Shown: positions 23,284 to 36,030 of the stretch, piece after piece | Position numbering within the stretch: the first letter of the stretch is position 1 | Layout of the letters: each line of letters opens with the position of its first letter | DNA from: a virus | Virus record (IMG/VR): IMGVR_UViG_3300045988_120383 | Direction: 5' to 3' (one strand) | Length of the DNA stretch: 36,120 nt | The notes under the pieces: model-generated | Databases searched by the model: none | What the model saw: only the letters and a program-made list of their open reading frames with translations | What the model was told of the DNA's origin: nothing | Position numbers and translations under genes: made by a program

Positions 23284-24637
23284 CTTCTGTCTCCTGTGTG
23301 TATAATTCGTGAGTTCCGTTTAGGATCTTCAGTTCTTCCAGTGATTGAAACGAGAACCCCATCTGCTGAAGTAATCTATAGAAGTCTCTTAGGCATTTCA
23401 TCCCTTTTTTGTAGTGTCCGTAATAGTCGGTTGCTTCGTACGGCTCTGCCGTCCGGGTCAAGAGGATCAGCATTTGCTTTTCTTGGCTTATTTCTGCAAA
23501 TTCTTTTTCGATCCGTTCTTTTTCTTCTTTCGCTTCGTATACTTTTTCGATCCCGTAAAATTCATACACTGCATTCATGTGTGCTACGCTTCCGCCGTCC
23601 GTTATCCGGTTTATCATGATCTTCCATCCTGTTTCTTTTACGTTGACTTCTTTGGGTATCGTGATTTTTCCCGACACAAGTTCTTTGATAAAATCGTCCC
23701 TTTCCCTTCTCATTCTTTTCAGGATTTCCGTTATTTTTCTTTTGTTTTCCTTGATTTTCTCCGTTTTCTTTTCCTGCTCCGTTTTCTTTTCCTGCTCCGT
23801 TTTTTTCTTGCTCTTTTGTATTACTTTTTTTACTACATAGATCCTATCGTAGTATTGATAATAATAGAGCTGATCTTTTGTATCTTGCAGATTGATTTTT
23901 GTTTGATCCTCCCACCGTGACAGATCAATATTTGTTATCTCTTTCCATTTCCCGGTCCATCTTTCTTCTTTTGCTTTTTCGGGTGCGACTTTTACTCCTT
24001 TTTCTTCCAGCATTTCAAACACTATTTGAGCGTTTTTCTTTATTTTTTCTTCTTTTACGGCTTGTTTTGCTTTCCATGCGATTTCGCGCGACGACGCGGC
24101 AGTCTTAAGGATTTCATTTCTTTTTTCAACGTCTTGTACCTTCTCCAGTTCGTAAAGGTCCGTTAATGTGAGTTGGAAGTCCTTATTTTCTTCGCGATTC
24201 GTGAGCATTTCCTGATCCAGTTTTGCAAGATTTAGCCTATGCCGCACTGTACTTTTGCTAAATCCGGTCTTTTCCGCGATTGTTGTTTCTGTTTCTCCTA
24301 AGTCCAACATCAGCTGGAATCCTTGTGCTTGCTCGCTTACTGATAGATCGCTGCGCTGCATGTTTTCCAACAGCATCGTTGATATTTGCTCTTTTTCTGT
24401 CATGTCTACAACAGAACAGGGCATTGTTTTCAATCCCGCTTTTCTCGCTGCCGTCAGTCTTCGGTTTCCGATTACTACAAGATAGTGGTCTTTTTTGTCC
24501 GGGTTTGGTACTACAGTCAAATTTTGCATTACGCCACGAGCTTTTATGCTTTCCGCCAGCTCGTCAATGTCGGTGTATACTTTCCGCACGTTCTGCGGGT
24601 GTATGTCTAACTGTTCGATTGCAATATCTTGTATCAT
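23273..24637 (-). CDS. ParB/Srx-domain protein (ParB-like nuclease / partition-like DNA-binding protein)
   Basis: ATG at 24637 (RBS AAAGGAGAG, ATGA overlap). IEQLDIHPQNVRKVY...LAESIKARGVMQNLTVV...VVIGNRRLTAARKAGL is the ParB N-terminal signature, followed by an HTH (TIAEKTGFSKSTVRHRL). Confidence 0.8.
   Translation of the reverse strand: MIQDIAIEQLDIHPQNVRKVYTDIDELAESIKARGVMQNLTVVPNPDKKDHYLVVIGNRRLTAARKAGLKTMPCSVVDMTEKEQISTMLLENMQRSDLSVSEQAQGFQLMLDLGETETTIAEKTGFSKSTVRHRLNLAKLDQEMLTNREENKDFQLTLTDLYELEKVQDVEKRNEILKTAASSREIAWKAKQAVKEEKIKKNAQIVFEMLEEKGVKVAPEKAKEERWTGKWKEITNIDLSRWEDQTKINLQDTKDQLYYYQYYDRIYVVKKVIQKSKKKTEQEKKTEQEKKTEKIKENKRKITEILKRMRRERDDFIKELVSGKITIPKEVNVKETGWKIMINRITDGGSVAHMNAVYEFYGIEKVYEAKEEKERIEKEFAEISQEKQMLILLTRTAEPYEATDYYGHYKKGMKCLRDFYRLLQQMGFSFQSLEELKILNGTHELYTQETEDEH
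23759..23808. repeat. 18-bp tandem repeat (about 2.7 units) inside the ParB-like gene
   Basis: ctccgttttcttttcctg occurs twice plus a partial copy. It encodes KKTEQEKKTEQEKKTEK. Confidence 0.8.
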
Positions 24638-24894
24638 ATCTGCTCTCCTTTCAGTAATTTTTCCACTTCCCACCAATTAAATGATCTTTTGATCCCGTAG
24701 GGGTTTTCAAAAAGTGCGTGATGCGGGAACGTCTTTAAAAAGCGCATCCGTTTCTTGATGACGGTGTGTCTTTCGCTTCTTTCCGCCTGCTGCCTGAAGT
24801 TTAGTGTGTATATCTTTCCTTCAACAAGTCTTAGGCGGTTGCCGATGTATTCTCTTGCGTTTTTCGCGCATCTTGCTTCTTTCGTAATTCTCAT
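24634..24894 (-). CDS. Hypothetical early protein
   Basis: 86-aa ORF, translationally coupled on both sides. Confidence 0.5.
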   Translation of the reverse strand: MRITKEARCAKNAREYIGNRLRLVEGKIYTLNFRQQAERSERHTVIKKRMRFLKTFPHHALFENPYGIKRSFNWWEVEKLLKGEQI

Positions 24895-25320
24895 TTATAA
24901 CAGTTCCTCTCTTAACAATCCCTGATAATCGTTGCTGTCGCAAAAGCGAAATTCCGTTTCGTGTTTCTCCGCTTCCTCAAGATACATTTGCCACAATTCT
25001 CTGTTTTGCACTTCCGCACCTGTGGCTTTTTTCCACTCGGATCGCCGCCACTTCTCCGGCGCGTCTTGCTCTGATATGTTTTTGATGTAAGCGTTATCCG
25101 TGTGAATTACAACATGGCACTGCTCTTTTAATTTTTGCAAGGATTTTATGATTGCGATCAGCGTCAATCTGTTGTAAGTAGATTCGCATTCTTCTCCGCT
25201 AATGATCCGGTACGCTTCGTCTCCGCTTGACCTAGTAAATACTAGGGCAGAGGCGTATTTCCCGTCTTTTACGACGGGGGATTTTATGGTGGTTTCTATG
25301 TAGATATTTACTGTTTTCAT
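24895..25320 (-). CDS. RNase HI-like protein with a non-canonical active site
   Basis: It aligns by eye to E. coli RNase HI. VNIYIETT corresponds to VEIFTDGS, TYNRLTLIAII to TNNRMELMAAI, VVIHTDNAYI to VILSTDSQYV, and VQNRELWQ to VKNVDLWQ. Confidence 0.6.
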   Translation of the reverse strand: MKTVNIYIETTIKSPVVKDGKYASALVFTRSSGDEAYRIISGEECESTYNRLTLIAIIKSLQKLKEQCHVVIHTDNAYIKNISEQDAPEKWRRSEWKKATGAEVQNRELWQMYLEEAEKHETEFRFCDSNDYQGLLREELL

Positions 25321-25321
25321 T

Positions 25322-26083
25322 TTAAATCCTCCTGTGGATTCTGATTAGTGTGTATCTGCGGTATCTCATCCCCGTAGCCGGGTTGATCCCCTCGTAACTG
25401 TTTGCGATGTAATAGCCTTTTTTGGGTTTTACTTCTTTTTGCCAGCGTACAAGTTTTTGGGATTTTGGTTCGGGTAACGGCATATTTTTCGCATGGTTGT
25501 AGCTCGTTTCTTTTAGTCGCGGTTTTCCTTTGCTTCCGTCCGATTTCTTCTCTCTTGTCTTTTCGTTTTTTGTCATATAATTTGCCAGTTTTGTAAAATC
25601 CTCATCGTAAAACCGGCTTTTTTTGATCTGCGTAATATAGACTGCTCCGTGTTCCCACGCGTCTTCGATCCATTCTGCCGCCCCTGATGTCTTTTTAATG
25701 ACTAGATGGATGTGCCATGCTCCCTTTGTCCCCCGCTCTATGTTTCTGATCCAGTAAAACGGAGTGTTTGCCTTTTTATATTTCGGACGGAGCTTTCGGA
25801 GTGCTTTTTGCAAGTCTTTTAGTGCCGCTGTCATGTCTTTCGGTCTTTGCTCGACTTTGTAGGTGTATGTTACAAAGTAGTCTCCTGTGTCAAAGTATTC
25901 GATTAGCAATCGTCTGCATATCTTTGCTCGGTTGGCTTGGTTGACTGCCGCCATCTGTTCCGGCGTCGGTTTCTTTTTCTTTTGCCGTGCCTTTCCTTTT
26001 GCTCCATATCTTCCGTCTGGATATTCCTCTACGTCGTAGACGTCTCCGCCCCGTAATTTGTACGTTTTTCTCCGTGTTGCCAT
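25322..26083 (-). CDS. HUH-superfamily rolling-circle replication initiator (Rep)
   Basis: Motif 1 is YFVTYTY, motif 2 is AWHIHLVI (HUH) and motif 3 is LANYMTKN (Y..K). The N-terminus is basic. Confidence 0.65.
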   Translation of the reverse strand: MATRRKTYKLRGGDVYDVEEYPDGRYGAKGKARQKKKKPTPEQMAAVNQANRAKICRRLLIEYFDTGDYFVTYTYKVEQRPKDMTAALKDLQKALRKLRPKYKKANTPFYWIRNIERGTKGAWHIHLVIKKTSGAAEWIEDAWEHGAVYITQIKKSRFYDEDFTKLANYMTKNEKTREKKSDGSKGKPRLKETSYNHAKNMPLPEPKSQKLVRWQKEVKPKKGYYIANSYEGINPATGMRYRRYTLIRIHRRI

Positions 26084-26126
26084 CTTTTATCTGTCCTAAC
26101 TTTAATATCTTTATCGAGGTTTAAAA

Positions 26127-26140
26127 GCGGGAGTCCCCGC
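26127..26140 (-). terminator. Small attenuator-like hairpin in the rep leader
   Basis: The - strand reads gcggg-gact-cccgc followed by TTTTAAA, about 45 nt upstream of the rep ATG. Confidence 0.3.
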
Positions 26141-26149
26141 GTGTATCGC

Positions 26150-26178
26150 TTGACTTCCCGCCTCTTATTTGATACAAT
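26150..26178 (+). promoter_or_regulatory. Near-consensus sigma-A promoter reading antisense to the rep leader
   Basis: TTGACT (26150..26155), 17-nt spacer, TACAAT (26173..26178), with an extended -10 TG (TGaTACAAT). Confidence 0.6.
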
Positions 26179-26184
26179 ATATTT

Positions 26185-26247
26185 GTCCTAACAAGAGGCG
26201 GGAACGCCATCTTTTAAGCGCATCAGTTGCTGTGATGCGCTTTTTTT
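26185..26247 (+). ncRNA. Candidate countertranscript (ctRNA), about 63 nt, antisense to the rep mRNA leader
   Basis: It is bounded by the promoter above and by the terminator aagcgcatca-gttgctg-tgatgcgctt+T7 (26216..26247). The 5' end (u)guccuaac is complementary to the rep SD region at 26092..26100. Confidence 0.45.
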
Positions 26248-26386
26248 AATTGATTACATATGTACCGCCGCGCTTTTTTTGCTTTTCGCGCGCATACGCT
26301 TCGACTTCCGATCTGGTCATTGTCTTGCACTCTAATGCGTACGGATCTCCCCAGCGGATGATCCACAAAATAACTTCTTCTTTCAT
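26246..26386 (-). CDS. Small hypothetical protein (46 aa; not in the ORF track)
   Basis: ATGA overlap with the upstream stop. MKEEVILWIIRWGDPYALECKTMTRSEVEAYAREKQKKRGGTYVIN. Confidence 0.45.
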   Translation of the reverse strand: MKEEVILWIIRWGDPYALECKTMTRSEVEAYAREKQKKRGGTYVIN

Positions 26387-26628
26387 TTCATGAGGTGTTT
26401 CGCTGCTTCTCTCGCTATTTCTTGTGCTGATTTTTTTATTTCCTCTTCTATTTCTTCTTGCGTCATTGTGGATGTTTTAACTATTTTTTGCATTGACTTT
26501 TCTGCGTGTTTTTTTCCGTACTCTTCTTCGAGGATTTTTCTTATTCCTCTTAATATCATGACTGTTTCTGCTTCTAATAATATTAAATTTCCTTTTATTT
26601 CCACATTGCCTTTACTGCATTTAATCAT
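26383..26628 (-). CDS. Hypothetical early protein
   Basis: 81-aa ORF with a Glu/Lys-rich C-terminal half. Confidence 0.5.
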   Translation of the reverse strand: MIKCSKGNVEIKGNLILLEAETVMILRGIRKILEEEYGKKHAEKSMQKIVKTSTMTQEEIEEEIKKSAQEIAREAAKHLMK

Positions 26629-26674
26629 CTTTACAAATTCCTTTCTTTCCCGTACAATAATCTTGGTTGTTTAT

Positions 26675-26970
26675 CTATGCGTCCTAGAGGTTGCCGCCTC
26701 TTATGGGCGCTTTTTTGTTCTGTAAACGTCAAAGTCTTCGCGATTGCCTATGCTTCCCCACGATGTGATCTGATCGTTTTTTGTAAGTACAACTGCGTTT
26801 GTATAATCCTGATCGTATTTCAGGCACCATCCTTCGAGCAGTTCTAAGATGCAGTTCATTTCTTCTTCGGCGTCTTTCTTTATTTCTTCGTTCATTTCTT
26901 TGTTCACCTCCTTAGATCGGTCCTGCCTGCAGGATGTAAATAATCACAGCCATCACCGCATTTAACATCA
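26675..26970. repeat. Direct repeat copy A (about 296 bp) of the pair flanking the hexapeptide-repeat gene
   Basis: It aligns with 27662..27955. The 26830..26970 part is near-identical to 27817..27955; the remainder is more diverged. Confidence 0.85.
26701..26907 (-). CDS. Small acidic protein, duplicate A
   Basis: 68 aa. The first 25 residues are identical to the product of 27689..27892. RBS TAAGGAGGTGAAC. Confidence 0.65.
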   Translation of the reverse strand: MNKEMNEEIKKDAEEEMNCILELLEGWCLKYDQDYTNAVVLTKNDQITSWGSIGNREDFDVYRTKKRP

Positions 26971-26986
26971 CACTATCTTCTTTCAT
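26912..26986 (-). pseudogene. Truncated copy of the C-terminal TM segment of the 27897..28121 gene
   Basis: MKEDSVMLNAVMAVIIYILQAGPI*. Its last 18 residues are identical to the C-terminus of the 74-aa protein. TAATG overlap with the hexapeptide gene stop. Confidence 0.4.
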
Positions 26987-27630
26987 TACTCAACGTATTT
27001 TCTATTTCCTACTTCGTTTTCATCCTCTTCGAATCTGAGTTCCATCAGGTCTGCCAGCATCAGGTATTCTTGTGCCTTCTTTGTTTCTCCGTGTGTCTCC
27101 CGGATCTTATCCCGGAACTGTGCAAGCGTCCCGTAGAAGCATCCGCACCGCACACCCACGCCGCCATCTTTGAGACGGAAGAAGGTCGTTGTACGGTTGA
27201 CAGATCCGAAACCGTGAGCGTATGCATAGTCCTCATCGCTGCACACCAGCGCATTGCCGTACACCCACGCATTGCCGTACACCCACGCATTGCCGTACAC
27301 CCACGCATTGCCGTACACCCGCGCATTGCCGTACACCCGCGCATCGCCGGAAACCTGTGCATCTCCGTACACCCACGCATTGTCGTACACCCGCGCATCG
27401 CCGGAAACCTGTGCATCTCCGTACACCCGCGCATTGCCGTACACCCACGCATTGTCGTACACCCACGCATTGTCGTCATGACCAAGGTTTGATTCCTTCT
27501 CCACATACCCGCCAAGTTCTCCGGCTTCCACATCGCCGAACTCAACAAGGGCACGGATGCGGAACAGCTTTGTCCCGAACATATTTGTAATAAATTCATT
27601 TGTTAATTCAAATTTCTTCACTTTCTTCAC
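26986..27630 (-). CDS. Hexapeptide-repeat (left-handed beta-helix-like) protein
   Basis: 214 aa with 13 consecutive [ND]-A-[WRQL]-V-[YSC]-[GDS] hexads. These are flanked by an N-terminal LFRIRALVEFGDVEAGELGGYVEKESNL and a C-terminal VRCGCFYGTLAQFRDKI module. Confidence 0.8.
   Translation of the reverse strand: MKKVKKFELTNEFITNMFGTKLFRIRALVEFGDVEAGELGGYVEKESNLGHDDNAWVYDNAWVYGNARVYGDAQVSGDARVYDNAWVYGDAQVSGDARVYGNARVYGNAWVYGNAWVYGNAWVYGNALVCSDEDYAYAHGFGSVNRTTTFFRLKDGGVGVRCGCFYGTLAQFRDKIRETHGETKKAQEYLMLADLMELRFEEDENEVGNRKYVE
27241..27474. repeat. 13 x 18-bp tandem repeat array (coding)
   Basis: The unit is gcattgccgtacacccac, with point variants. All six frames stay open across it. Confidence 0.9.
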
Positions 27631-27661
27631 CCTTTCTGTTATAATAAAAATGATTTTTTAA

Positions 27662-27955
27662 CTATGCGCCCAGAGGTTGCCGCCTCATTTATGGGCGCTC
27701 TTTTATTCTGCAAACGAGGTCTTCGTGATTTCCTATACTTCCCCATGATGTGATCTGATTATGTTTCACAAGCACAACCGCGTTTGCATAATCCTGATCG
27801 TATTTCAGACACCATTCTTCGAGCAGTTCTAAGATGCAGTTCATTTCTTCTTCGGCGTCTTTCTTTATTTCTTCGTTCATTTCTTTGTTCACCTCCTTAG
27901 ATTGGGCCTGCCTGCAAGATGTAAATGATCACAGCCATCACCGCGTTTAACATCA
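27662..27955. repeat. Direct repeat copy B (about 294 bp)
   Basis: See copy A. Confidence 0.85.
27689..27892 (-). CDS. Small acidic protein, duplicate B
   Basis: 67 aa: MNKEMNEEIKKDAEEEMNCILELLEEWCLKYDQDY... Confidence 0.65.
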   Translation of the reverse strand: MNKEMNEEIKKDAEEEMNCILELLEEWCLKYDQDYANAVVLVKHNQITSWGSIGNHEDLVCRIKERP

Positions 27956-28121
27956 TGCTGGCGACTGTTACTGTGACCAGTCCTCTTGCAGCATTGTCTC
28001 TTTCTTTTCTTTTGCGCTGGATCTTTCGTTTCTCCCGCTTGTGATCCGCTTCCGGAAAATTTCTCCGCTCGATCGGGATCAGTGACAGTTCCGGCACTGT
28101 CGGTAATTTAATCTCTTCCAT
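27897..28121 (-). CDS. Small membrane-anchored protein (basic N-terminal half, C-terminal TM)
   Basis: 74 aa. RBS GAAAGGAAAG. The TM segment is LVTVTVASMMLNAVMAVIIYIL. Confidence 0.55.
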   Translation of the reverse strand: MEEIKLPTVPELSLIPIERRNFPEADHKREKRKIQRKRKERDNAARGLVTVTVASMMLNAVMAVIIYILQAGPI

Positions 28122-28143
28122 GCTTGTCTTTCCTTTCTACCGC

Positions 28144-28296
28144 TTACGCGGTTTTCTCTTTTCGTATTAATGCTTCTCTGATAATCCGACTGCATGCGTC
28201 TATACTGCTTTGGATCTCTTCTTTTGTACGGTTTACATAACTGTCGTCATGCACTCGGATTGTTGCACCTCTTATATGGATTTCTTCAACAATCAC
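28144..28296 (-). CDS. Small hypothetical protein (50 aa; not in the ORF track)
   Basis: GTG at 28296 after AGGAGGTGAAGAAC. (M)IVEEIHIRGATIRVHDDSYVNRTKEEIQSSIDACSRIIREALIRKEKTA. Confidence 0.45.
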   Translation of the reverse strand: MIVEEIHIRGATIRVHDDSYVNRTKEEIQSSIDACSRIIREALIRKEKTA

Positions 28297-28341
28297 GTTC
28301 TTCACCTCCTGTTTATGTTTATGTATTACGGGTTGTACGTG

Positions 28342-28370
28342 TTGCGTTGTCCCCTAAAATCTCCTATACT
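28342..28370 (+). promoter_or_regulatory. Promoter for the + strand cargo gene 28423..28644
   Basis: TTGCGT, 17-nt spacer, TATACT. Confidence 0.45.
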
Positions 28371-28422
28371 GTTAATACAGGACACTGCCATGTCCGAGTA
28401 TTAAAGAAAGGAGAGCAAACAT

Positions 28423-28644
28423 ATGTATGATGTTTATTTTTCATATTTCGATGGAAATGATCACTTGTGCACGAATATAGATAAAATCGAAATTCCTACT
28501 TCATCCGGAATAAGAACATATTCGGGCGATGAAATTGCATCTCAGCATTTTAGGATTCATTCAGAGATTTACCTGTATAGTTCTAGTACAAGCTACACAA
28601 TTTCTACAACTGGGTTAAAAGCCATCGAAATCAGAAAGAAATAA
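28423..28644 (+). CDS. Hypothetical protein, transcribed opposite to the early operon
   Basis: 73 aa with strong RBS AAAGGAGAG. It is AT-rich and has its own promoter. Confidence 0.55.
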   Translation: MYDVYFSYFDGNDHLCTNIDKIEIPTSSGIRTYSGDEIASQHFRIHSEIYLYSSSTSYTISTTGLKAIEIRKK

Positions 28645-28649
28645 TCTTT

Positions 28650-28772
28650 CTATACTAGAACCTCTATACTAATTTCTGTATGGGGGTGCTCTTTCTTTAA
28701 TTCTTCTGCTTTCTTCAAAACATCACTAACATCGTCCATCCTTGTTATGTGAAAAATTATTTTTATTCTCAT
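28650..28772 (-). CDS. Small hypothetical protein (40 aa; not in the ORF track)
   Basis: RBS GAGGAGGTGAAGG. MRIKIIFHITRMDDVSDVLKKAEELKKEHPHTEISIEVLV. Confidence 0.4.
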   Translation of the reverse strand: MRIKIIFHITRMDDVSDVLKKAEELKKEHPHTEISIEVLV

Positions 28773-28833
28773 TATTACCTTCACCTCCTCTTCTGGTTCA
28801 AAGTCCTTTTTATCGGACACCTTTCCTGTTACA

Positions 28834-28988
28834 CTACTCTAGGAAGTATTCGATAGATACTCCGAAGTAGTCGGCAACCTTTTTAATGTGTCAACTCTAG
28901 GCGCTGACTCGTCCCATTTTTTAATGGTTGCATTTCCTATATTGCAATCTTTTTCGAGTCGCGATATTGATACGCCCTTTGTTGGATC
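28834..28988 (-). pseudogene. XRE-family HTH gene remnant with two frame breaks and no start codon
   Basis: Three frames together read ...FEVELIQQR / GVSISRLEKDCNIGNATIKKWDESAPRVDTLK / KVADYFGVSIEYFLE*. The breaks fall at a G3 run and an A5 run. Confidence 0.55.
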
Positions 28989-28991
28989 AGC

Positions 28992-29180
28992 TCAACCTCG
29001 AAATTGGTAAGCTACTGCGAAACCCGTGACTAATATGCATATAAATATCGCATATCCGAGATACAGTCTTGCAATTTCCGGCTGTATCTTTTTCATTACT
29101 TTATGTCCGGCAAATGCTGATATCCATAGTATTAAAAGCATCGTCGTGTCTAATATGTTTTGCATTGTTTTTATTTCCAA
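28992..29180 (-). CDS. Small two-TM membrane protein
   Basis: 62 aa. TTG start after AGGAGAAGTA. The TM segments are TTMLLILWISAFAG and LGYAIFICILVTGFAVA. Confidence 0.5.
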   Translation of the reverse strand: MEIKTMQNILDTTMLLILWISAFAGHKVMKKIQPEIARLYLGYAIFICILVTGFAVAYQFRG

Positions 29181-29358
29181 TACTTCTCCTTTTTCTTCTC
29201 TGTCTATGTAAATTCATCTGGTCTTGCTTCAAAATCCATACAAAATGTAGGGAGTTTATCTCTGAAGCCTATGTAATAAAGCGCTGCGTTCTCTTGTTTA
29301 TACTTTCTTGTTGTGGTAAAATTTTTTATCATAATAACCAATAAAGGAGGTAGCTTAT

Positions 29359-29523
29359 ATGACAGTTCTCGAAGCCATTAACCGTCTTTATGAAGAAATA
29401 AAGAAAGAAATTCTTGATTCTCCCACCGACGAGGCTACAATACTTTACCTTCAAGAAGCGCTAAACGAAGCGAAAAAGACCGTGCTTGATGAATATAAAA
29501 TTTCAACAAAATCAAACAAATAA
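29359..29523 (+). CDS. Small helical protein (54 aa; not in the ORF track), convergent with 29435..29755 and overlapping it
   Basis: RBS AAAGGAGGT is 8 nt before the ATG. MTVLEAINRLYEEIKKEILDSPTDEATILYLQEALNEAKKTVLDEYKISTKSNK. Confidence 0.45.
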   Translation: MTVLEAINRLYEEIKKEILDSPTDEATILYLQEALNEAKKTVLDEYKISTKSNK

Positions 29524-31211: not shown

Positions 31212-31240
31212 ATACTAGCATTACTATTTTCCTTTGTCAA
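31212..31240 (-). promoter_or_regulatory. Early leftward promoter (P-cro)
   Basis: The - strand has TTGACA (31240..31235), a 17-nt spacer and TGcTAGTAT (extended -10; hexamer 31217..31212). Confidence 0.6.
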
Positions 31241-31275
31241 TCGCTTTGAGTGAATTTTTTTGGTTTTGTGCATTT

Positions 31276-31288
31276 TCACTAAAAGTGA
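31276..31288. promoter_or_regulatory. Operator palindrome TCACTAAAAGTGA
   Basis: Perfect 5+3+5 inverted repeat between the divergent promoters. Additional TCACT/AGTGA half-sites occur at about 31187, 31249 and 31316. Confidence 0.5.
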
Positions 31289-31297
31289 TATGTTGTG

Positions 31298-31326
31298 TTT
31301 ACATAGTTCATACAAAGTGATATTAT
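31298..31326 (+). promoter_or_regulatory. Repressor promoter (P-cI)
   Basis: TTTACA, 17-nt spacer, TATTAT. It overlaps an AGTGA half-site. Confidence 0.5.
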
Positions 31327-31371
31327 AATTTTATAAACTAGATATTTCTATAAAGGCAGGTGAATATAATA

Positions 31372-32046
31372 GTGGATTTCAAAAATATAATATTAGCTCT
31401 TCGCAATGAAAGAGGGTTTAGTCAAGAGCAATTAGCTAAAGTTCTTCATGTTTCTAAAAGTACCGTTGCTATGTGGGAGACAGGTCAACGTCTTCCAAGT
31501 GTTGAAAAATATAAAGAAATTGCTGATTATTTCAATGTTGATATGGATTTTCTTTATGGTCGAACCTCTATAAAGAGGAGAACTCTATTTGATGAATCCG
31601 GTTCTGAATATGTAAATAGTAAACTTGTTACTAGCATTTCACGCAAAAATCAAGGTATTATAATTAACGTTCTCGGTCGTGTTGCTGCCGGTATCCCGAT
31701 CGATGCCGTTACCGATATTATAGATACAGAAGAAATCTCACTGGAGATGGCTCGAACTGGTGAATTCTTCGGGCTTCAAATCAAGGGTGACAGTATGGAA
31801 CCCAAAATTTCCGACGGCGATGTCGTGATCGTTCGGCAGCAAAACGACGCCGAAAGTGGGGATATTGTAATCGCTACAATAAACGGGGACGAGGCTACTT
31901 GTAAAAGGATTAGAAAATACCGAGACGGTATAGAACTTGTTTCAAGTAATCCTTGTTACGAACCTATGTTCTTTTCAAATGAAGAGATAGAAAATAAGCC
32001 CGTAAGAATTATCGGGCGAGTTGTTGAGTTAAGAGCTAAATTTTAA
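31372..32046 (+). CDS. CI/LexA-like repressor (XRE HTH plus S24 peptidase)
   Basis: ERGFSQEQLAKVLHVSKSTVAMWETGQRLPS is the HTH. GDSMEP is the Ser nucleophile motif and ATCKRI the Lys motif. GTG at 31372 lies 9 nt after AGGTG; GTG at 31360 is the ORF-track alternative. Confidence 0.9.
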   Translation: MDFKNIILALRNERGFSQEQLAKVLHVSKSTVAMWETGQRLPSVEKYKEIADYFNVDMDFLYGRTSIKRRTLFDESGSEYVNSKLVTSISRKNQGIIINVLGRVAAGIPIDAVTDIIDTEEISLEMARTGEFFGLQIKGDSMEPKISDGDVVIVRQQNDAESGDIVIATINGDEATCKRIRKYRDGIELVSSNPCYEPMFFSNEEIENKPVRIIGRVVELRAKF

Positions 32047-32126
32047 AGATATAACCACTACGGTGATTATATAAAGTGGTGTTAAAGGAACAGGGGACAA
32101 AAGAAAGAGAGGGAAGTAAAAACGCT

Positions 32127-32873
32127 ATGAAACAAAAAGAAAAATATTTTTTCGATAAAAATGAGGTCATCGGAAATAAAAAAAGAGCTATAAAAACCCT
32201 TAATGAGCTGCTTGAAGCACACATTAAAAAAGCACCTGAAGACAGCACAACAGAAAACGATTCCCATCTCAAAAAAGTAAATCTGCTTTCGTATTGGATC
32301 AATACATATTGTAGATTTATTAAAAAAGAAAAAACATTTGATGCTTCAAAAAATAAAGTATACAAAAGAGGTGAAATTATTCAAGTTGACCTAGGCTTTC
32401 GTATTGGTCATGAAGAAGGCGGATTGCATTATGCGGTTGTTTTAAATAAAAAAGACTCCCCTTATTCCGATATATTAACCGTACTTCCTCTTTCATCTAA
32501 AAAAGAATATACCACACCTAATAAATTCACTATTGATTTGGGAAACGAAATATATGATAAGCTCCATCAAAAGTATATGCAAAAATTCAATAATTCAATT
32601 CAAGATGTGAAAGTATCGCCAAATCCGGTGTATGCCGGAGAGAAAATAACGATAGCTTTTACAGTAGATACAACGGAAGCCGATAAGGTGCAAAAAGAAA
32701 TTGATTTAATGAAAACTGGAAGCATTGGCTTAGTTTCTCAAATCACAACAATTAGCAAAATACGAATAACAAAACCTTTGCATTATTCCGATGCTTTTGC
32801 AGGTATAAAATTAAGCGATGAAAGTTTAAATATAATAGATAAAAAAATCTGCGAATTATATATTGGTAAATAA
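32127..32873 (+). CDS. Long MazF/PemK-fold protein with an N-terminal extension and an internal insertion
   Basis: KRGEIIQVDLGFRIGHEEGGLHYAVVLN, ILTVLPLSSKK and GSIGLVSQITTISKIRI match the three MazF core strands. ATG at 32127; the ORF-track GTG at 32076 is an alternative. Confidence 0.6.
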   Translation: MKQKEKYFFDKNEVIGNKKRAIKTLNELLEAHIKKAPEDSTTENDSHLKKVNLLSYWINTYCRFIKKEKTFDASKNKVYKRGEIIQVDLGFRIGHEEGGLHYAVVLNKKDSPYSDILTVLPLSSKKEYTTPNKFTIDLGNEIYDKLHQKYMQKFNNSIQDVKVSPNPVYAGEKITIAFTVDTTEADKVQKEIDLMKTGSIGLVSQITTISKIRITKPLHYSDAFAGIKLSDESLNIIDKKICELYIGK

Positions 32874-32888
32874 TTATAGTATAAAGTA

Positions 32889-32917
32889 TTGACTTTTGGG
32901 GCATACCAACATATAAT
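32889..32917 (+). promoter_or_regulatory. Consensus sigma-A promoter for the toxin mRNA / leader RNA
   Basis: TTGACT, 17-nt spacer, TATAAT. Confidence 0.7.
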
Positions 32918-32980
32918 GTTATAGAACAAAACACCTTAGCGTGTATAACATTAGGACAATGCAGTTTACCTGCACAACTT

Positions 32981-33007
32981 AGACCCCGTAGTAATACGGG
33001 GTCTTTT
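32981..33007 (+). terminator. Hairpin plus U4 in the leader (terminator of an ~85-nt RNA, or a 5'UTR structure)
   Basis: agaccccgta-gtaa-tacggggtct followed by TTTTA. Confidence 0.5.
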
Positions 33008-33137
33008 ACGTTATACGAAATATACCCGACACTCCCAAAGTCGCCGGAGCATATACGAAGGAAAATGTATTTACCAGGGTAGCCGGAGGACGAGCTTCCA
33101 CCCATTCCGAGAATCCTGTGGAGGGGGGGTGGTAATT

Positions 33138-34497: not shown

Positions 34498-36030
34498 ATG
34501 TCTTATTTTATTTATGCTCGTAAATCAAGGAAGGATGCTGATCTCGAAGCGTTGGGAATCGATGTGCTCGAGCGCCATATCACCACTTTGCTGGAGCTTG
34601 CCAAAACGCTGTTGCTTCCGATCGGGGCAATTTATCGCGAAGTCGTCTCCGGCGACAGTATTGATTCCCGCCCGGTGATGTCTCAAGTGATGGCCGAAGT
34701 AGAGTCTTGTATGTGGGACGGATGTCTTGTTATGGACGTTGACCGCCTCGCCCGCGGAGATACGATCGATCAAGGGCGGGTACAGCGTGCATTTTTCTAC
34801 TCAAACACAAAGATCGTTACTCCTAACAAGACGTATGATCCGGCAAACGAGTACGATAACGAATACTTTGAATTTAGTCTGTTTATGAGTCGCAGAGAAT
34901 ACGCAACAATTAAGCGCAGGATGCAGCGTGGCAGAGAACGAAGCAGCTCTGACGGATATTATGTCGGAAATATACCGCCCTACGGATGGCGTCGCGTTAT
35001 CGCTCCTGATGGTAAGCACTTCTCTCTTGCTCCCGATCCAACCGAATCCCCCGTGCTCGATCTGATGTATGATCTATGCGGCAATAAACAATACGGTTAT
35101 CAAAAAGCATGTACTCATATGGCCGAAATGGGAATTTTATCAAGAAGCGGACGCCCGTTTACGCCGTCCACGCTAAAAGGAATTATATCTAATCCGGCAA
35201 ATATCGGAAAAGTTCGCTGGGGACATCGGAAAACGGTTCGTACGGTCAAAGATGGGAAAATTTCTCGTTCTCGCCCGCACTCGTCAGATTATATTCTTGC
35301 CGATGCAGTTTGGCCGCCCCGGATCAGCGCGGACCTTTTCCAGCGTGCCAACCAGCCAAAAGGGAGCTGCTCCGCTCCGGTGCGTGATGACAGACCGATT
35401 CAGAATATTTTTGCCGGTCTTGTCCGGTGTTCCCAGTGTGGCCGGCTGATGGTTCGTAAAAAAGCGCATACTAAAACGCCTTATGACATTCTGATTTGTC
35501 AATATACTGAATGCCCTACAGTCGGTATCCGAATTGATGAGTTAGAGCTCGCCTTGTTGGAATGGCTGCGGAATTACATAGATAAATACGAGCTCACTGA
35601 CGCGTTGCCCGAAGACGTGGAGAACGTCGCTGCAAAAGAAGCGATTGTTAAGAATTTTGAAAAAGAACATGAAACACTTTTAAAGCAACGTGAATCCCTT
35701 TTTGATTTTCTCGAGCAGGGTATCTATACGAAGGAAATTTTTATCGAGCGGTCAAACGCTCTTGAGCGACGCGTAAAAGAATGTATGGAGCACATTATCT
35801 CCGCGCAGAACGACCTTCACGCCACACTCGCACTACAGGCAAACCGTAAAAATTTCGTTCCGCGCTGTAAGAATTTGCTCGGCGAATGGGGTAGACTTAC
35901 AATTCCCGAAAAGAACAGCGCTTTAAAGGTTTTAATTGAAAAAATCATGTTCACAAAGACAAAACGAAACAAAAAGGGGCAGGATCGTTCTGATTTTGAA
36001 ATTGATGTGTTTCCAAAAGTGCCGAAATAG
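34498..36030 (+). CDS. Large serine recombinase (phage integrase)
   Basis: 510 aa. The resolvase domain has YARKSRKD (catalytic Ser) and VMDVDRLARGD. A recombinase domain, a zinc ribbon (CSQCGRLM...C.YTEC) and a C-terminal coiled coil follow. RBS AGGAG. Confidence 0.9.
   Translation: MSYFIYARKSRKDADLEALGIDVLERHITTLLELAKTLLLPIGAIYREVVSGDSIDSRPVMSQVMAEVESCMWDGCLVMDVDRLARGDTIDQGRVQRAFFYSNTKIVTPNKTYDPANEYDNEYFEFSLFMSRREYATIKRRMQRGRERSSSDGYYVGNIPPYGWRRVIAPDGKHFSLAPDPTESPVLDLMYDLCGNKQYGYQKACTHMAEMGILSRSGRPFTPSTLKGIISNPANIGKVRWGHRKTVRTVKDGKISRSRPHSSDYILADAVWPPRISADLFQRANQPKGSCSAPVRDDRPIQNIFAGLVRCSQCGRLMVRKKAHTKTPYDILICQYTECPTVGIRIDELELALLEWLRNYIDKYELTDALPEDVENVAAKEAIVKNFEKEHETLLKQRESLFDFLEQGIYTKEIFIERSNALERRVKECMEHIISAQNDLHATLALQANRKNFVPRCKNLLGEWGRLTIPEKNSALKVLIEKIMFTKTKRNKKGQDRSDFEIDVFPKVPK

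What the first reader, a model, noticed from the sequence alone, without database searches (positions are those of the whole stretch)
26084..26250. Plasmid-style countertranscript RNA module antisense to the leader of the HUH Rep gene
The 162-nt gap upstream of rep contains, on the opposite strand, a near-consensus extended -10 promoter (TTGACT-17-TGaTACAAT, 26150..26178). A strong intrinsic terminator (26216..26247, 10-bp stem plus T7) follows about 40 nt later. Together they predict a ~63-nt antisense RNA.

The 5' end of that RNA (uguccuaac, 26184..26192) is complementary to GUUAGGACA in the rep leader. The same 9-mer recurs at 26092..26100, where it contains the only SD-like AGGA in front of the rep ATG.

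In the rep mRNA the first copy sits in the loop of a perfect 12-bp hairpin (26155..26166 / 26193..26204), which is a classic kissing-loop target. A small hairpin+U4 (26127..26140) lies between that target and the rep start, like the pT181/pIP501 attenuators. Antisense control of the initiator of this kind is a hallmark of rolling-circle and theta plasmids. It is unusual in a tailed-phage replication module.
Basis: partly seen in the sequence, partly recalled or inferred. Interest (0 to 1): 0.75.

Follow-up and report, generated by a model that had tools for sequence, protein, structure and literature searches.

The report
Small antisense RNA gene beside phage rep
A gut-bacterium prophage carries a conserved gene for a ~64-base RNA next to its rolling-circle replication gene, read in the opposite direction and matching that gene's ribosome-binding site and start codon, so it most likely holds the replication initiator in check, much as plasmid countertranscripts do.

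Summary
On its own the promoter match is at chance level. Comparison with relatives makes it convincing.

In 78 non-redundant lineages of this Rep family (Lachnospiraceae prophages, Rep identity 39-98%), an opposite-strand TTGnnn-17-TAnnnT promoter followed by an intrinsic terminator sits at the same place in 69-70. It predicts a 53-78 nt RNA. That is about 400 times the background rate.

The terminator stem covaries in 11 of 11 pairs. The unit travels with rep and a downstream RNase H gene, while the upstream genes vary.

In the window the RNA's 5' tail matches the Shine-Dalgarno region. Similar matches at different sub-sites recur in 10-16 of 69 lineages.

The repeated 9-mer is also the end of a near-invariant 26-nt block resembling the phiX174/pC194 nick site. 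That block is probably the replication origin.

The kissing-loop and attenuator details stay unproven, and a primer or origin role is a live rival. There is no Rfam match, and I found no paper describing it.

Verdict: a real new antisense RNA family of a known kind, with moderate interest.

The parts
26150..26178 (+). Promoter of the small RNA: -35 TTGACT (26150-26155), 17-nt spacer, TG (26170-26171), -10 TACAAT (26173-26178)
   Evidence: The same -35 / 17 nt / TAnnnT arrangement sits at the same place in about 72 of 78 lineages, while the -10 sequence itself varies. Close relatives carry TATAAT instead, by a C-to-T change at 26175.
26185..26248 (+). Predicted ~64-nt antisense RNA (TSS inferred 7 nt after the -10): free 5' tail 26185-26192, stem-loop 1 26193-26213, terminator stem-loop 26216-26242, U-run
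   Evidence: Fold is -24.8 kcal/mol with z -3.6. Predicted RNAs in 69 lineages are 53-78 nt (median 61). 62 of 69 have two hairpins, the median free 5' tail is 10 nt, and mean z is -4.2.
26184..26192 (+). 5'-terminal anti-SD segment TGTCCTAAC, a direct repeat of 26092-26100
   Evidence: RNAduplex with the translation start region gives -13.5 kcal/mol, z -4.7.
26206..26216 (+). Anti-start-codon segment GCCATCTTTTA, an exact direct repeat of 26079-26089, which spans the rep ATG (26081-26083)
   Evidence: It has only two copies in the window, and 0 of 100 shuffles reached that. Relative L039 has a different sequence (GGGATGGC) repeated at the same two places.
26216..26247 (+). Intrinsic terminator of the small RNA (10-bp stem, 7-nt loop, T7). 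It abuts the stop codon of the upstream 46-aa ORF (26246-26248).
   Evidence: 74 of 78 lineages have an antisense-oriented terminator, against 19 of 78 on the sense strand. In RNAalifold, all 11 pairs show compensatory changes.
26155..26204 (.). Inverted repeat (arms 26155-26169 / 26190-26204) enclosing the -10 box and the TSS
   Evidence: A helix enclosing the -10 is present in 65 of 69 lineages with unrelated sequences, against 48% of shuffles. G-T versus A-C counts are 36 versus 24, so there is no clear strand bias.
26123..26140 (-). GC hairpin (26127-26140) followed by U4 (26123-26126) on the rep-sense strand
   Evidence: A hairpin with dG <= -6 is present in 63 of 66 lineages. In most it is flanked by an A-run and a T-run, at fixed distance from both the -35 and the block.
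26093..26118 (-). Near-invariant block CTCGATAAAGATATTAAAGTTAGGAC. It is the candidate Rep nick/recognition site (origin) and contains the SD-like AGGA.
   Evidence: It is unique in the window. Core positions are invariant in 72-74 of 74 scored lineages, at Rep identities down to 39%. It resembles the phiX174 origin CAACTTG^ATATTAATAAC and the pC194 origin core CTTGATAATAAGG (PMC7072734).
25322..26083 (-). rep, the HUH rolling-circle initiator (253 aa)
   Evidence: Pfam PF23343, E 5.7e-14. PHROG 3584/3419. H124-I-H126 and Y169 are invariant. The AlphaFold model (pLDDT 88) has as nearest folds SIRV1 ORF119, AAV Rep, circovirus Rep and IS608 TnpA, all weak hits.
24895..25320 (-). RNase HI gene directly after rep, a conserved partner of the module
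   Evidence: Pfam RNase_H and NCBIfam. It is present right after rep in 58 of 72 lineages, while other neighbours vary.

Best explanation
The gap upstream of rep holds a small gene on the opposite strand. A sigma-70-type promoter (26150-26178) and an intrinsic terminator (26216-26247) produce a ~64-nt untranslated RNA with a free 5' tail and two hairpins.

The RNA is fully complementary to the leader of the rep message, about 100-165 nt upstream of the ATG. That message is most likely a read-through transcript of the early lytic operon. In this phage the RNA also carries two short segments that match the rep translation start region itself: nt 1-8/9 against the Shine-Dalgarno region, and nt 22-32 against the start codon.

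The most likely function is negative control of Rep synthesis. Pairing with the start region would block ribosome binding. Pairing with the leader would make a long duplex that is cleaved or destabilised. Together these would keep the nicking enzyme off in the lysogen and set a threshold or timing after induction.

The neighbouring GC hairpin and invariant 26-nt block are most likely the Rep origin (nick site). The whole stretch would then be a compact cassette of origin, initiator and control RNA that moves as one module.

Shown: the sequence features, their conservation, the covariation and the complementarities. Inferred: that the RNA is made, that rep is co-transcribed through the gap, the direction of regulation, and the origin assignment.

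The confidence of 0.6 is for the whole statement. That a small RNA gene exists here I would put at about 0.85.
For: 1. A promoter-plus-terminator unit sits at the same place in 69-70 of 78 non-redundant lineages. The background is 23 units in 819 kb of scanned strand, which is about a 400-fold enrichment. Sense-strand promoter scores are at chance.
2. The -10 and stem sequences change while the consensus positions and the pairing are kept. All 11 terminator pairs show compensatory changes.
3. The predicted RNAs share one architecture.
4. The unit stays with rep while the upstream ORFs fall into at least 30 unrelated families. Its 3' end abuts whatever stop codon lies there.
5. The window has two independent exact repeats linking the RNA to the SD and the AUG.
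6. Complementarity between the RNA and the start region is enriched across lineages: 10 of 69 at p<=0.01 and 16 of 69 at p<=0.05. It involves different sub-sites from -30 to +13, including parts outside the invariant block (L050, L039, L062). This argues that selection acts on pairing rather than on one DNA motif.
7. In most of these lineages the complementary stretch starts within the first four nucleotides of the predicted RNA (positions 1-4 in eight of the 16 lineages with p<=0.05).
8. No terminator-like site lies on the lytic strand between the early promoter (31212-31240) and rep, so the sense transcript should cross the gap.
9. The layout parallels pSK41 RNAI (target about 100 nt upstream of the translation start), pMV158 RNAII (5' tail pairing) and lambda OOP (PMC5703833; PMC3349717).
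Against: - There are no expression data of any kind.
- Complementarity to the start region is absent in most lineages, so it cannot be the universal mechanism.
- The two matching segments lie in swapped order relative to their targets. They cannot form one continuous duplex.
- The anti-AUG segment is partly buried in stem-loop 1.
- Masking the RNA's target leaves predicted SD accessibility unchanged (0.64 versus 0.69), and the GC hairpin forms in either state.
- The inverted repeat shows no strand bias.
- Four lineages keep the block and the hairpin but lack the promoter.
- Two further antisense units upstream suggest a more general strategy not specific to rep.
Confidence: 0.6

Rival explanations
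1. The RNA acts in replication rather than regulation. One version: it primes complementary-strand synthesis, like the RNA-polymerase-dependent single-strand origins of rolling-circle plasmids. Another version: its transcription opens or negatively supercoils the adjacent origin so that Rep can nick. In both, the conserved phage RNase HI removes or processes the RNA.
For: - The RNA has the polarity needed to prime on the rep-sense strand. By analogy with phiX174, that is the strand that would be nicked and displaced.
- The unit lies immediately 5' of the candidate nick site.
- The gap folds strongly as single-stranded DNA (z -7.1).
- In 22 of 69 lineages the inverted repeat extends into the -35 box, so a hairpin in single-stranded DNA would rebuild a duplex -35.
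- rnhA follows rep in 58 of 72 lineages.
- RNA-polymerase-made primers at sso elements are established (PMC5703833; PMC5714925). RNA-based prophage origins exist in mycobacteriophages (PMC7157519).
Against: - The promoter is a complete duplex-type -35/17/-10 promoter, and the RNA ends at a strong intrinsic terminator. That suits a released stable RNA, not a template-bound primer.
- In the hairpin form the -10 would be present only as template strand, which is a poor sigma-70 substrate. This rests on established knowledge of sigma-70, not on a test here.
- The ssoA signature CS-6 is absent (0 in the window; 4 of 78 sense and 0 of 78 antisense, against about 7.6 expected by chance).
- This model does not explain the lineage-specific complementarity to the SD and AUG regions.
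- A 36-kb tailed phage is unlikely to pass through a fully single-stranded circle (inference).
Confidence: 0.15
2. The unit is one of several generic antisense 'brakes' in the early lytic operon. Convergent transcription, or duplex formation with the polycistronic mRNA, damps leaky early expression in lysogens or sets timing. There is no special relation to rep.
For: - The window has two more + strand promoter-terminator mini-units in intergenic gaps of the same operon: 26630-26715 and 27617-27704. They are paralogous to each other and have the same layout, with the terminator over the upstream stop codon.
- In relatives, 19 of the 23 extra units also point against the lytic strand.
- All 8 terminator-like sites in 24000-29500 are on the + strand.
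Against: - Only the rep-proximal unit is positionally fixed across about 90% of lineages, and it travels with rep whatever lies upstream.
- Its spacing to the GC hairpin and the block is fixed.
- It carries specific matches to the rep start region.
Confidence: 0.15
3. The inverted repeat and the repeated 9-mer are DNA elements of the double-strand origin, such as a cruciform or Rep-binding repeats. On this reading the promoter-like and terminator-like sequences are incidental.
For: - HUH origins typically combine a hairpin with conserved Rep sites, and the dso usually lies upstream of rep (PMC5703833).
- The repeat arms covary without strand bias.
- The 9-mer is part of the invariant block.
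- A C-rich/G-rich motif recurs in the repeat arms and the GC hairpin in 18 of 66 lineages.
Against: - This does not explain why TTGnnn and TAnnnT are kept at exactly 17 nt while the surrounding repeat sequence changes freely.
- It does not explain why a T-run-bearing terminator in the matching orientation always follows 25-50 nt after the TSS.
- The loop carries no conserved nick motif.
- The matches to the start region also involve sequence outside the block.
Confidence: 0.05

Closest known systems
pT181 RNAI and pIP501 RNAIII countertranscripts (transcription attenuation of rep)
   Same: All are small constitutive RNAs transcribed against the rep leader, well upstream of the start. A hairpin plus U-run sits just 5' of the rep ribosome-binding site. 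Alternative pairings exist among leader segments (PMC5703833).
   Different: - There is no sequence or structure homology (Rfam).
- The initiator family is unrelated and is confined to prophages.
- The target lies inside a long phage operon, not a dedicated rep transcript.
- Folding shows no RNA-dependent switch.
- The U-run is only 3-4 nt and pairs with an upstream A-run in most lineages.
pMV158 RNAII (48 nt, translation inhibition of repB through its 5' tail)
   Same: Similar size. Both have a single-stranded 5' tail as the likely pairing seed and a terminator hairpin. Both control an HUH initiator whose origin lies upstream of rep (PMC5703833).
   Different: - RNAII is transcribed from inside repB and overlaps the region just upstream of the translation start.
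- Here the RNA gene does not overlap the start region. It matches it only through two short repeated segments, 9 and 11 nt, in swapped order.
- No CopG-like repressor was identified.
pSK41 RNAI (~83 nt, target ~100 nt upstream of the translation start, two stem-loops plus a 5' tail)
   Same: The geometry is the same: two stem-loops, a free 5' tail, and a target about 100 nt upstream of the translation start (PMC5703833).
   Different: - pSK41 works by inducing a hairpin that hides the ribosome-binding site. No such induced sequestration is predicted here. In lineage L050, however, the freed repeat arm could pair with the start codon.
- pSK41 is a theta plasmid with a RepA_N initiator.
Phage lambda OOP RNA (77 nt)
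   Same: Both are self-terminating short RNAs transcribed against the early operon of a temperate tailed phage. Both lie immediately upstream of the replication initiator gene, with the terminator over the end of the preceding gene. OOP is made at a low level in the repressed prophage (PMC3349717).
   Different: - OOP overlaps 55 nt of cII and targets cII.
- Here the overlap with the upstream ORF is at most a few nucleotides, and the upstream ORFs are unrelated between lineages. The conserved partner is rep.
- There is no homology.
ssoA-type single-strand origins of rolling-circle plasmids
   Same: Both are non-coding, strand-specific and highly structured stretches near the double-strand origin. 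In both, RNA polymerase makes a short RNA complementary to the displaced strand (PMC5703833).
   Different: - The CS-6 motif is absent.
- This unit has a full duplex promoter and an intrinsic terminator.
- The predicted RNA is about three times longer than the ~20-nt ssoA primer (primer length from my own knowledge of Kramer et al. 1997, which PMC5703833 cites).

Membership tests
Plasmid rep countertranscripts acting by attenuation (pT181 RNAI / pIP501 RNAIII; Rfam ctRNA families) | Small untranslated RNA from its own promoter, antisense to the rep mRNA leader, ending at its own terminator | tested here: met
   This is predicted from sequence only. Promoter and terminator are conserved in 69-70 of 78 lineages, the terminator covaries, and the RNA holds no ORF (sequence). 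Expression was not tested.
Plasmid rep countertranscripts acting by attenuation (pT181 RNAI / pIP501 RNAIII; Rfam ctRNA families) | Sequence/structure homology to a curated ctRNA family | tested here: not met
   No Rfam hit at gathering threshold in the window or in 20 related loci. Only chance-level hits appeared at E<=10.
Plasmid rep countertranscripts acting by attenuation (pT181 RNAI / pIP501 RNAIII; Rfam ctRNA families) | Rho-independent terminator just 5' of the rep ribosome-binding site whose formation depends on the countertranscript (pre-emptor switch) | tested here: inconclusive
   A GC hairpin is present in 63 of 66 lineages, with U4 in the window. Alternative pairings exist. Constrained folding shows the hairpin forming with or without the RNA.
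Plasmid rep countertranscripts acting by attenuation (pT181 RNAI / pIP501 RNAIII; Rfam ctRNA families) | Acts in trans as a dose-dependent inhibitor of Rep synthesis and sets copy number | not testable with these tools
   This needs genetics. In addition, the element is an integrating prophage with a serine integrase at 34498-36030, so copy control in the plasmid sense is unlikely.
pMV158 RNAII-type translational inhibitors | RNA overlaps, or is complementary to, the rep translation initiation region | tested here: met
   It is met in the window through two repeats: the SD 9-mer and the AUG 11-mer. Across the family it is met in only 10-16 of 69 lineages, and not through physical overlap of the gene with the start region.
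Lambda OOP-like antisense RNAs | Target is the 3' part of the upstream gene (cII), with substantial overlap | tested here: not met
   The overlap with the upstream ORF is about 1 nt in most lineages (range -30 to +26). The upstream ORFs fall into at least 30 unrelated families.
ssoA-type single-strand origin | Conserved CS-6 (TAGCGT/A) and RSB motifs in a ~160-nt folded region | tested here: not met
   CS-6 is absent from the window gap. It is found in 4 of 78 lineages on the sense strand and 0 of 78 on the antisense strand, against about 7.6 expected by chance. RSB was not tested.
HUH rolling-circle origin (dso) upstream of rep | Highly conserved nick/recognition sequence next to a hairpin, close to rep | tested here: met
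   There is a 26-nt near-invariant block at a fixed distance from a conserved GC hairpin. It resembles the phiX174 and pC194 nick sites. Nicking itself cannot be tested here.

The most novel reading that the evidence does not exclude
The RNA may be an origin mask as well as, or instead of, an mRNA regulator. Its 5' end is complementary to the rep-sense strand of the invariant nick-site block.

It could therefore hybridise to the single-stranded or extruded origin DNA and block nicking or re-initiation by the HUH Rep. The conserved phage RNase HI would then be the enzyme that clears the RNA-DNA hybrid and licenses replication.

This would be RNA-guided control of a rolling-circle origin at the DNA level, in a tailed phage. 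Nothing found here excludes it, and nothing directly supports it beyond three observations: the shared sequence, the strand polarity, and the rep-rnhA linkage.
Probability: 0.06. Interest if true: 0.85.

Novelty: new member of a known kind. Interest (0 to 1): 0.55.

Why it matters
Temperate phages that replicate with a nicking HUH initiator must keep that enzyme silent while integrated in the host chromosome. How they do this has not been described. I found no paper on this module in the library searched.

This cassette is widespread in prophages of human and animal gut Lachnospiraceae. The protein search returned 959 or more Rep homologues, and IMG/VR held 489 confirmed stretches.

It offers a compact, directly testable candidate set:
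- a ~60-nt RNA;
- a defined origin-like block;
- Rep;
- RNase H.

A cultured relative, phiCs5676-1, is available for experiments.

If confirmed, it would add a new RNA family to phage regulation. It would also define the origin of a large and so far uncharacterised Rep family, and supply parts for genetic tools in gut Clostridia.

Tried and rejected
- The first genome-contig scan, with the single protein, found nothing. The alignment-based scan worked.
- RNAalifold on a MAFFT alignment of the -35-to-ATG stretch gave no structure, because the hairpin arms were aligned out of register. I used per-sequence folding instead.
- My first block pattern was mistyped and gave 0 hits.
- GC skew follows gene orientation and says nothing about the origin.
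- The profile search of PDB sequences gave no meaningful hit. The fold search gave only weak HUH neighbours.
- I considered a sense-strand promoter for rep inside the gap and found none above chance (and reading of the block).
- I considered a leader peptide. A 29-codon ORF starts at the upstream AAAAGATGGC copy, but it has no SD and is cut to 7 codons in L039, so I rejected it (sequence reading).
- I considered a pT181-type switch and a pSK41-type induced sequestration of the ribosome-binding site. Constrained folding shows neither in the window.
- I tried a strand-of-folding test on the inverted repeat by counting G-T against A-C. It gave 36 versus 24, which is not decisive.
- I tried co-occurrence of the RNA unit with rnhA. 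The counts were 55 both, 10 RNA unit only, 3 rnhA only and 4 neither. The exceptions are too few and too closely related to be informative.
Full report
**Context**

The window is a temperate tailed prophage.
- A serine integrase lies at 34498-36030 (+) and a CI-like repressor at 31360-32046 (+).
- Divergent promoters sit at about 31212-31326.
- All lytic genes are on the - strand: small early ORFs, rep (25322-26083), RNase HI (24895-25320), a ParB-like protein, large terminase, portal, major head protein and tape measure.

Rep is an HUH initiator.
- It matches Pfam PF23343 (E 5.7e-14) and PHROGs annotated as replication initiation.
- H124-I-H126 and Y169 are invariant.
- A confident AlphaFold model has other HUH nucleases as its nearest folds, though the hits are weak.

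Relatives are prophages of Lachnospiraceae and gut viral contigs. The nearest cultured phage is Clostridium phage phiCs5676-1, at 43% Rep identity. The family is essentially absent from PLSDB plasmids.

**The observation**

Taken alone, they are not beyond chance.
- Promoter-like and terminator-like hits in this region are at about the shuffled expectation.
- The 8-mer occurring twice was reached in 14 of 100 shuffles.

The predicted RNA (26185-26248) folds into a free 8-nt tail plus two hairpins (-24.8 kcal/mol, z -3.6). The sense leader is also unusually structured (z -5.9).

**Comparative test**

I collected 189 loci and reduced them to 78 non-redundant lineages, with Rep identity from 39% to 98%. 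The intergenic DNA is unalignable between most of them, yet the same order of elements recurs.

1. *Promoter.* An opposite-strand TTGnnn-17-TAnnnT promoter lies at a fixed distance from the ATG in about 72 of 78 lineages. The -35 is usually TTGACT, and the -10 varies only at non-consensus positions. Sense-strand scores are at chance.
2. *Terminator.* A terminator in the matching orientation follows, giving RNAs of 53-78 nt (median 61) in 69 lineages. Antisense-oriented terminators occur in 74 of 78 regions, against 19 of 78 on the sense strand.
3. *Enrichment.* The same detector run over all 819 kb of scanned strand found 23 units elsewhere and 70 at this one 80-nt position, where 0.18 are expected.
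4. *Covariation.* In an alignment of 23 RNAs, all 11 terminator pairs show compensatory double changes.
5. *Shape.* 62 of 69 predicted RNAs have two hairpins, the median free 5' tail is 10 nt, and mean fold z is -4.2.

The unit belongs to the rep module.
- The ORF upstream of it falls into at least 30 unrelated families, and the RNA's 3' end abuts whatever stop codon is there.
- RNase HI follows rep in 58 of 72 lineages.

No Rfam family matches the window or 20 related loci. I found no paper on it.

I conclude that a small RNA gene is very probably real.

**What it pairs with**

Complementarity to the first 9-mer copy is trivial, since the RNA is encoded opposite it. The informative matches are to the rep translation start region.

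In the window there are two such matches.
- The 5'-terminal TGTCCTAAC matches the SD region at 26092-26100. As part of a longer repeat it is 12 of 13 nt.
- An exact 11-mer, GCCATCTTTTA (26206-26216, RNA nt 22-32), matches 26079-26089, which spans the ATG. It was matched in 0 of 100 shuffles.

Across lineages, complementarity between the RNA body and positions -30 to +15 is enriched: 10 of 69 at p<=0.01 and 16 of 69 at p<=0.05.

The matched sub-site differs between lineages.
- The SD part of the block is matched in the window, L040 and L042.
- The AT-rich part of the block is matched in L043, L187, L069, L151 and L173.
- The spacer plus start codon is matched in L050, L039, L062 and the window.

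Where the start-region sequence differs between lineages, the copy in the RNA gene differs with it. Examples are AAAGTTAGGAC versus AAATTTAGGAC, and AAAGATGGC versus GGGATGGC.

In most of these lineages the complementary stretch begins within the first four nucleotides of the predicted RNA. It starts at positions 1-4 in eight of the 16 lineages with p<=0.05.

This pattern is what selection for RNA pairing predicts. A single DNA-binding motif would not produce it.

Two caveats apply.
- Most lineages lack any such match, so pairing with the leader itself must matter there.
- In the window the two segments are in swapped order relative to their targets, and the second is partly inside stem-loop 1.

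**The block and the hairpins**

The 26 nt before the SD spacer, CTYGATWARRWTATTAAAGWTAGGAC (window 26093-26118, -), are almost invariant in all lineages. They are far more conserved than Rep itself and are unique in the window.

In several lineages the block lies 26-37 nt from the ATG and another SD is present. The block is therefore not primarily a ribosome site.

It resembles the phiX174 origin, CAACTTG^ATATTAATAAC, in the same orientation as rep. It also resembles the pC194 origin core, CTTGATAATAAGG.

A GC hairpin at fixed spacing precedes it in 63 of 66 lineages. I read the hairpin plus block as the double-strand origin. This is an inference.

The inverted repeat that encloses the -10 and the TSS is conserved in 65 of 69 lineages with unrelated sequences. 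Its G-T versus A-C count (36 versus 24) shows no clear strand bias, and in 22 lineages it reaches into the -35. Whether it acts as an RNA hairpin in the leader or at the DNA level is open.

Leader segments offer alternative pairings.
- The right repeat arm can pair with the 3' half of the GC hairpin in 18 of 66 lineages at z < -2.
- In the window, 26198-26217 can pair with 26121-26140.

Constrained folding nevertheless shows the GC hairpin forming with or without the RNA, and SD accessibility is unchanged. The attenuator idea is therefore neither supported nor excluded.

**Mechanism and rivals**

The best reading is a cis-encoded antisense RNA that represses Rep synthesis.
- In this phage it would act partly by direct pairing with the SD and the AUG.
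- More generally it would form a duplex with the leader of the early transcript. That transcript should cross the gap, because no lytic-strand terminator intervenes.
- For an integrating phage, the role is more likely a lock or threshold on a chromosome-nicking enzyme than copy-number control.

The rivals are as follows.
- A primer or origin-activating RNA linked to RNase H. The polarity, position and rnhA linkage fit. The full duplex promoter, the intrinsic terminator, the missing ssoA motif and the start-region matches do not fit.
- A generic antisense brake. Two further paralogous units lie at 26630-26715 and 27617-27704. Only the rep unit is fixed and linked across lineages.
- A purely DNA-level origin structure. 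This cannot explain the conserved promoter geometry or the oriented terminator.

**Comparison with known systems**

- The layout is closest to pSK41 RNAI, which has its target about 100 nt upstream of the translation start, two stem-loops and a 5' tail.
- It resembles pMV158 RNAII in using a 5' tail for pairing.
- It resembles pT181 and pIP501 in having a hairpin plus U-run before the ribosome-binding site.
- Within phages it resembles lambda OOP, a short self-terminating RNA transcribed against the early operon just before the initiator gene.
- It is homologous to none of them, and its Rep family is not found on plasmids.

**Verdict**

The core interpretation, an antisense RNA gene tied to rep, is well supported by conservation. 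The specific kissing-loop and attenuator mechanism is unproven.

Part of what was read as an SD repeat is really a copy of an origin-like block. This is a new member of a known kind and is of moderate interest.

Noticed in passing
window 26630-26715 (+) and 27617-27704 (+): Two further small promoter-plus-terminator units point against the early lytic operon: TTTACA-17-TACAAT and TTCACT-17-TGtTATAAT, each giving an RNA of about 51-53 nt. They are paralogous to each other, sharing the core CTATGCGYCC(T)AGAGGTTGCCGCCTCWT(T)TATGGGCGCTYTTTT. Each sits in an intergenic gap with its terminator over the stop codon of the upstream ORF.
   Followed up: partly
window 26093-26118 (-): A near-invariant 26-nt block, CTYGATWARRWTATTAAAGWTAGGAC, lies before rep in all lineages, down to 39% Rep identity. 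It resembles the phiX174 and pC194 nick sites. It is the likely origin of this uncharacterised Rep family.
   Followed up: partly
window 24895-25320 (-) and related loci: An RNase HI gene directly follows rep in 58 of 72 lineages, while all other neighbours vary. Rep and RNase H therefore form a conserved pair.
   Followed up: partly
window 32889-33010 (+): A near-consensus promoter (TTGACT-17-TATAAT, 11/12) is followed by a strong terminator at 32981-33004. Together they give an ~87-nt unit inside the lysogeny module, opposite a 117-aa - strand ORF.
   Followed up: no
window 24000-29500: All 8 terminator-like sites are on the + strand and none is on the lytic (-) strand. In relatives, 19 of the 23 extra promoter-terminator units also point against the rep strand.
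   Followed up: partly
window 26175 (+); loci L007, L013, L018, L035: Among relatives with 98% Rep identity, the only recurrent changes in the gap are a C-to-T at the -10 (TACAAT to the consensus TATAAT) and length changes in the terminator T-run.
   Followed up: no
window 26121-26140 versus 26198-26217: A 20-nt, 80% complementary long-range inverted repeat links the GC hairpin plus U-run to the part of the leader covered by the small RNA. This is a possible pre-emptor pairing.
   Followed up: partly
terminator stems of the small RNA in many loci (alignment A3): The top of the terminator stem keeps a GCATC...GATGC core in many otherwise divergent lineages.
   Followed up: no
window 26124-26213 (-): A 29-codon ORF starts at the upstream copy of AAAAGATGGC in the leader. 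It has no SD and is truncated to 7 codons in relative L039, so it is probably not a gene.
   Followed up: yes
window 32076-32873 (+) and 26986-27630 (-): A MazE/MazF-like hit lies in the lysogeny region, and a YdcK beta-solenoid repeat protein lies among the early genes.
   Followed up: no
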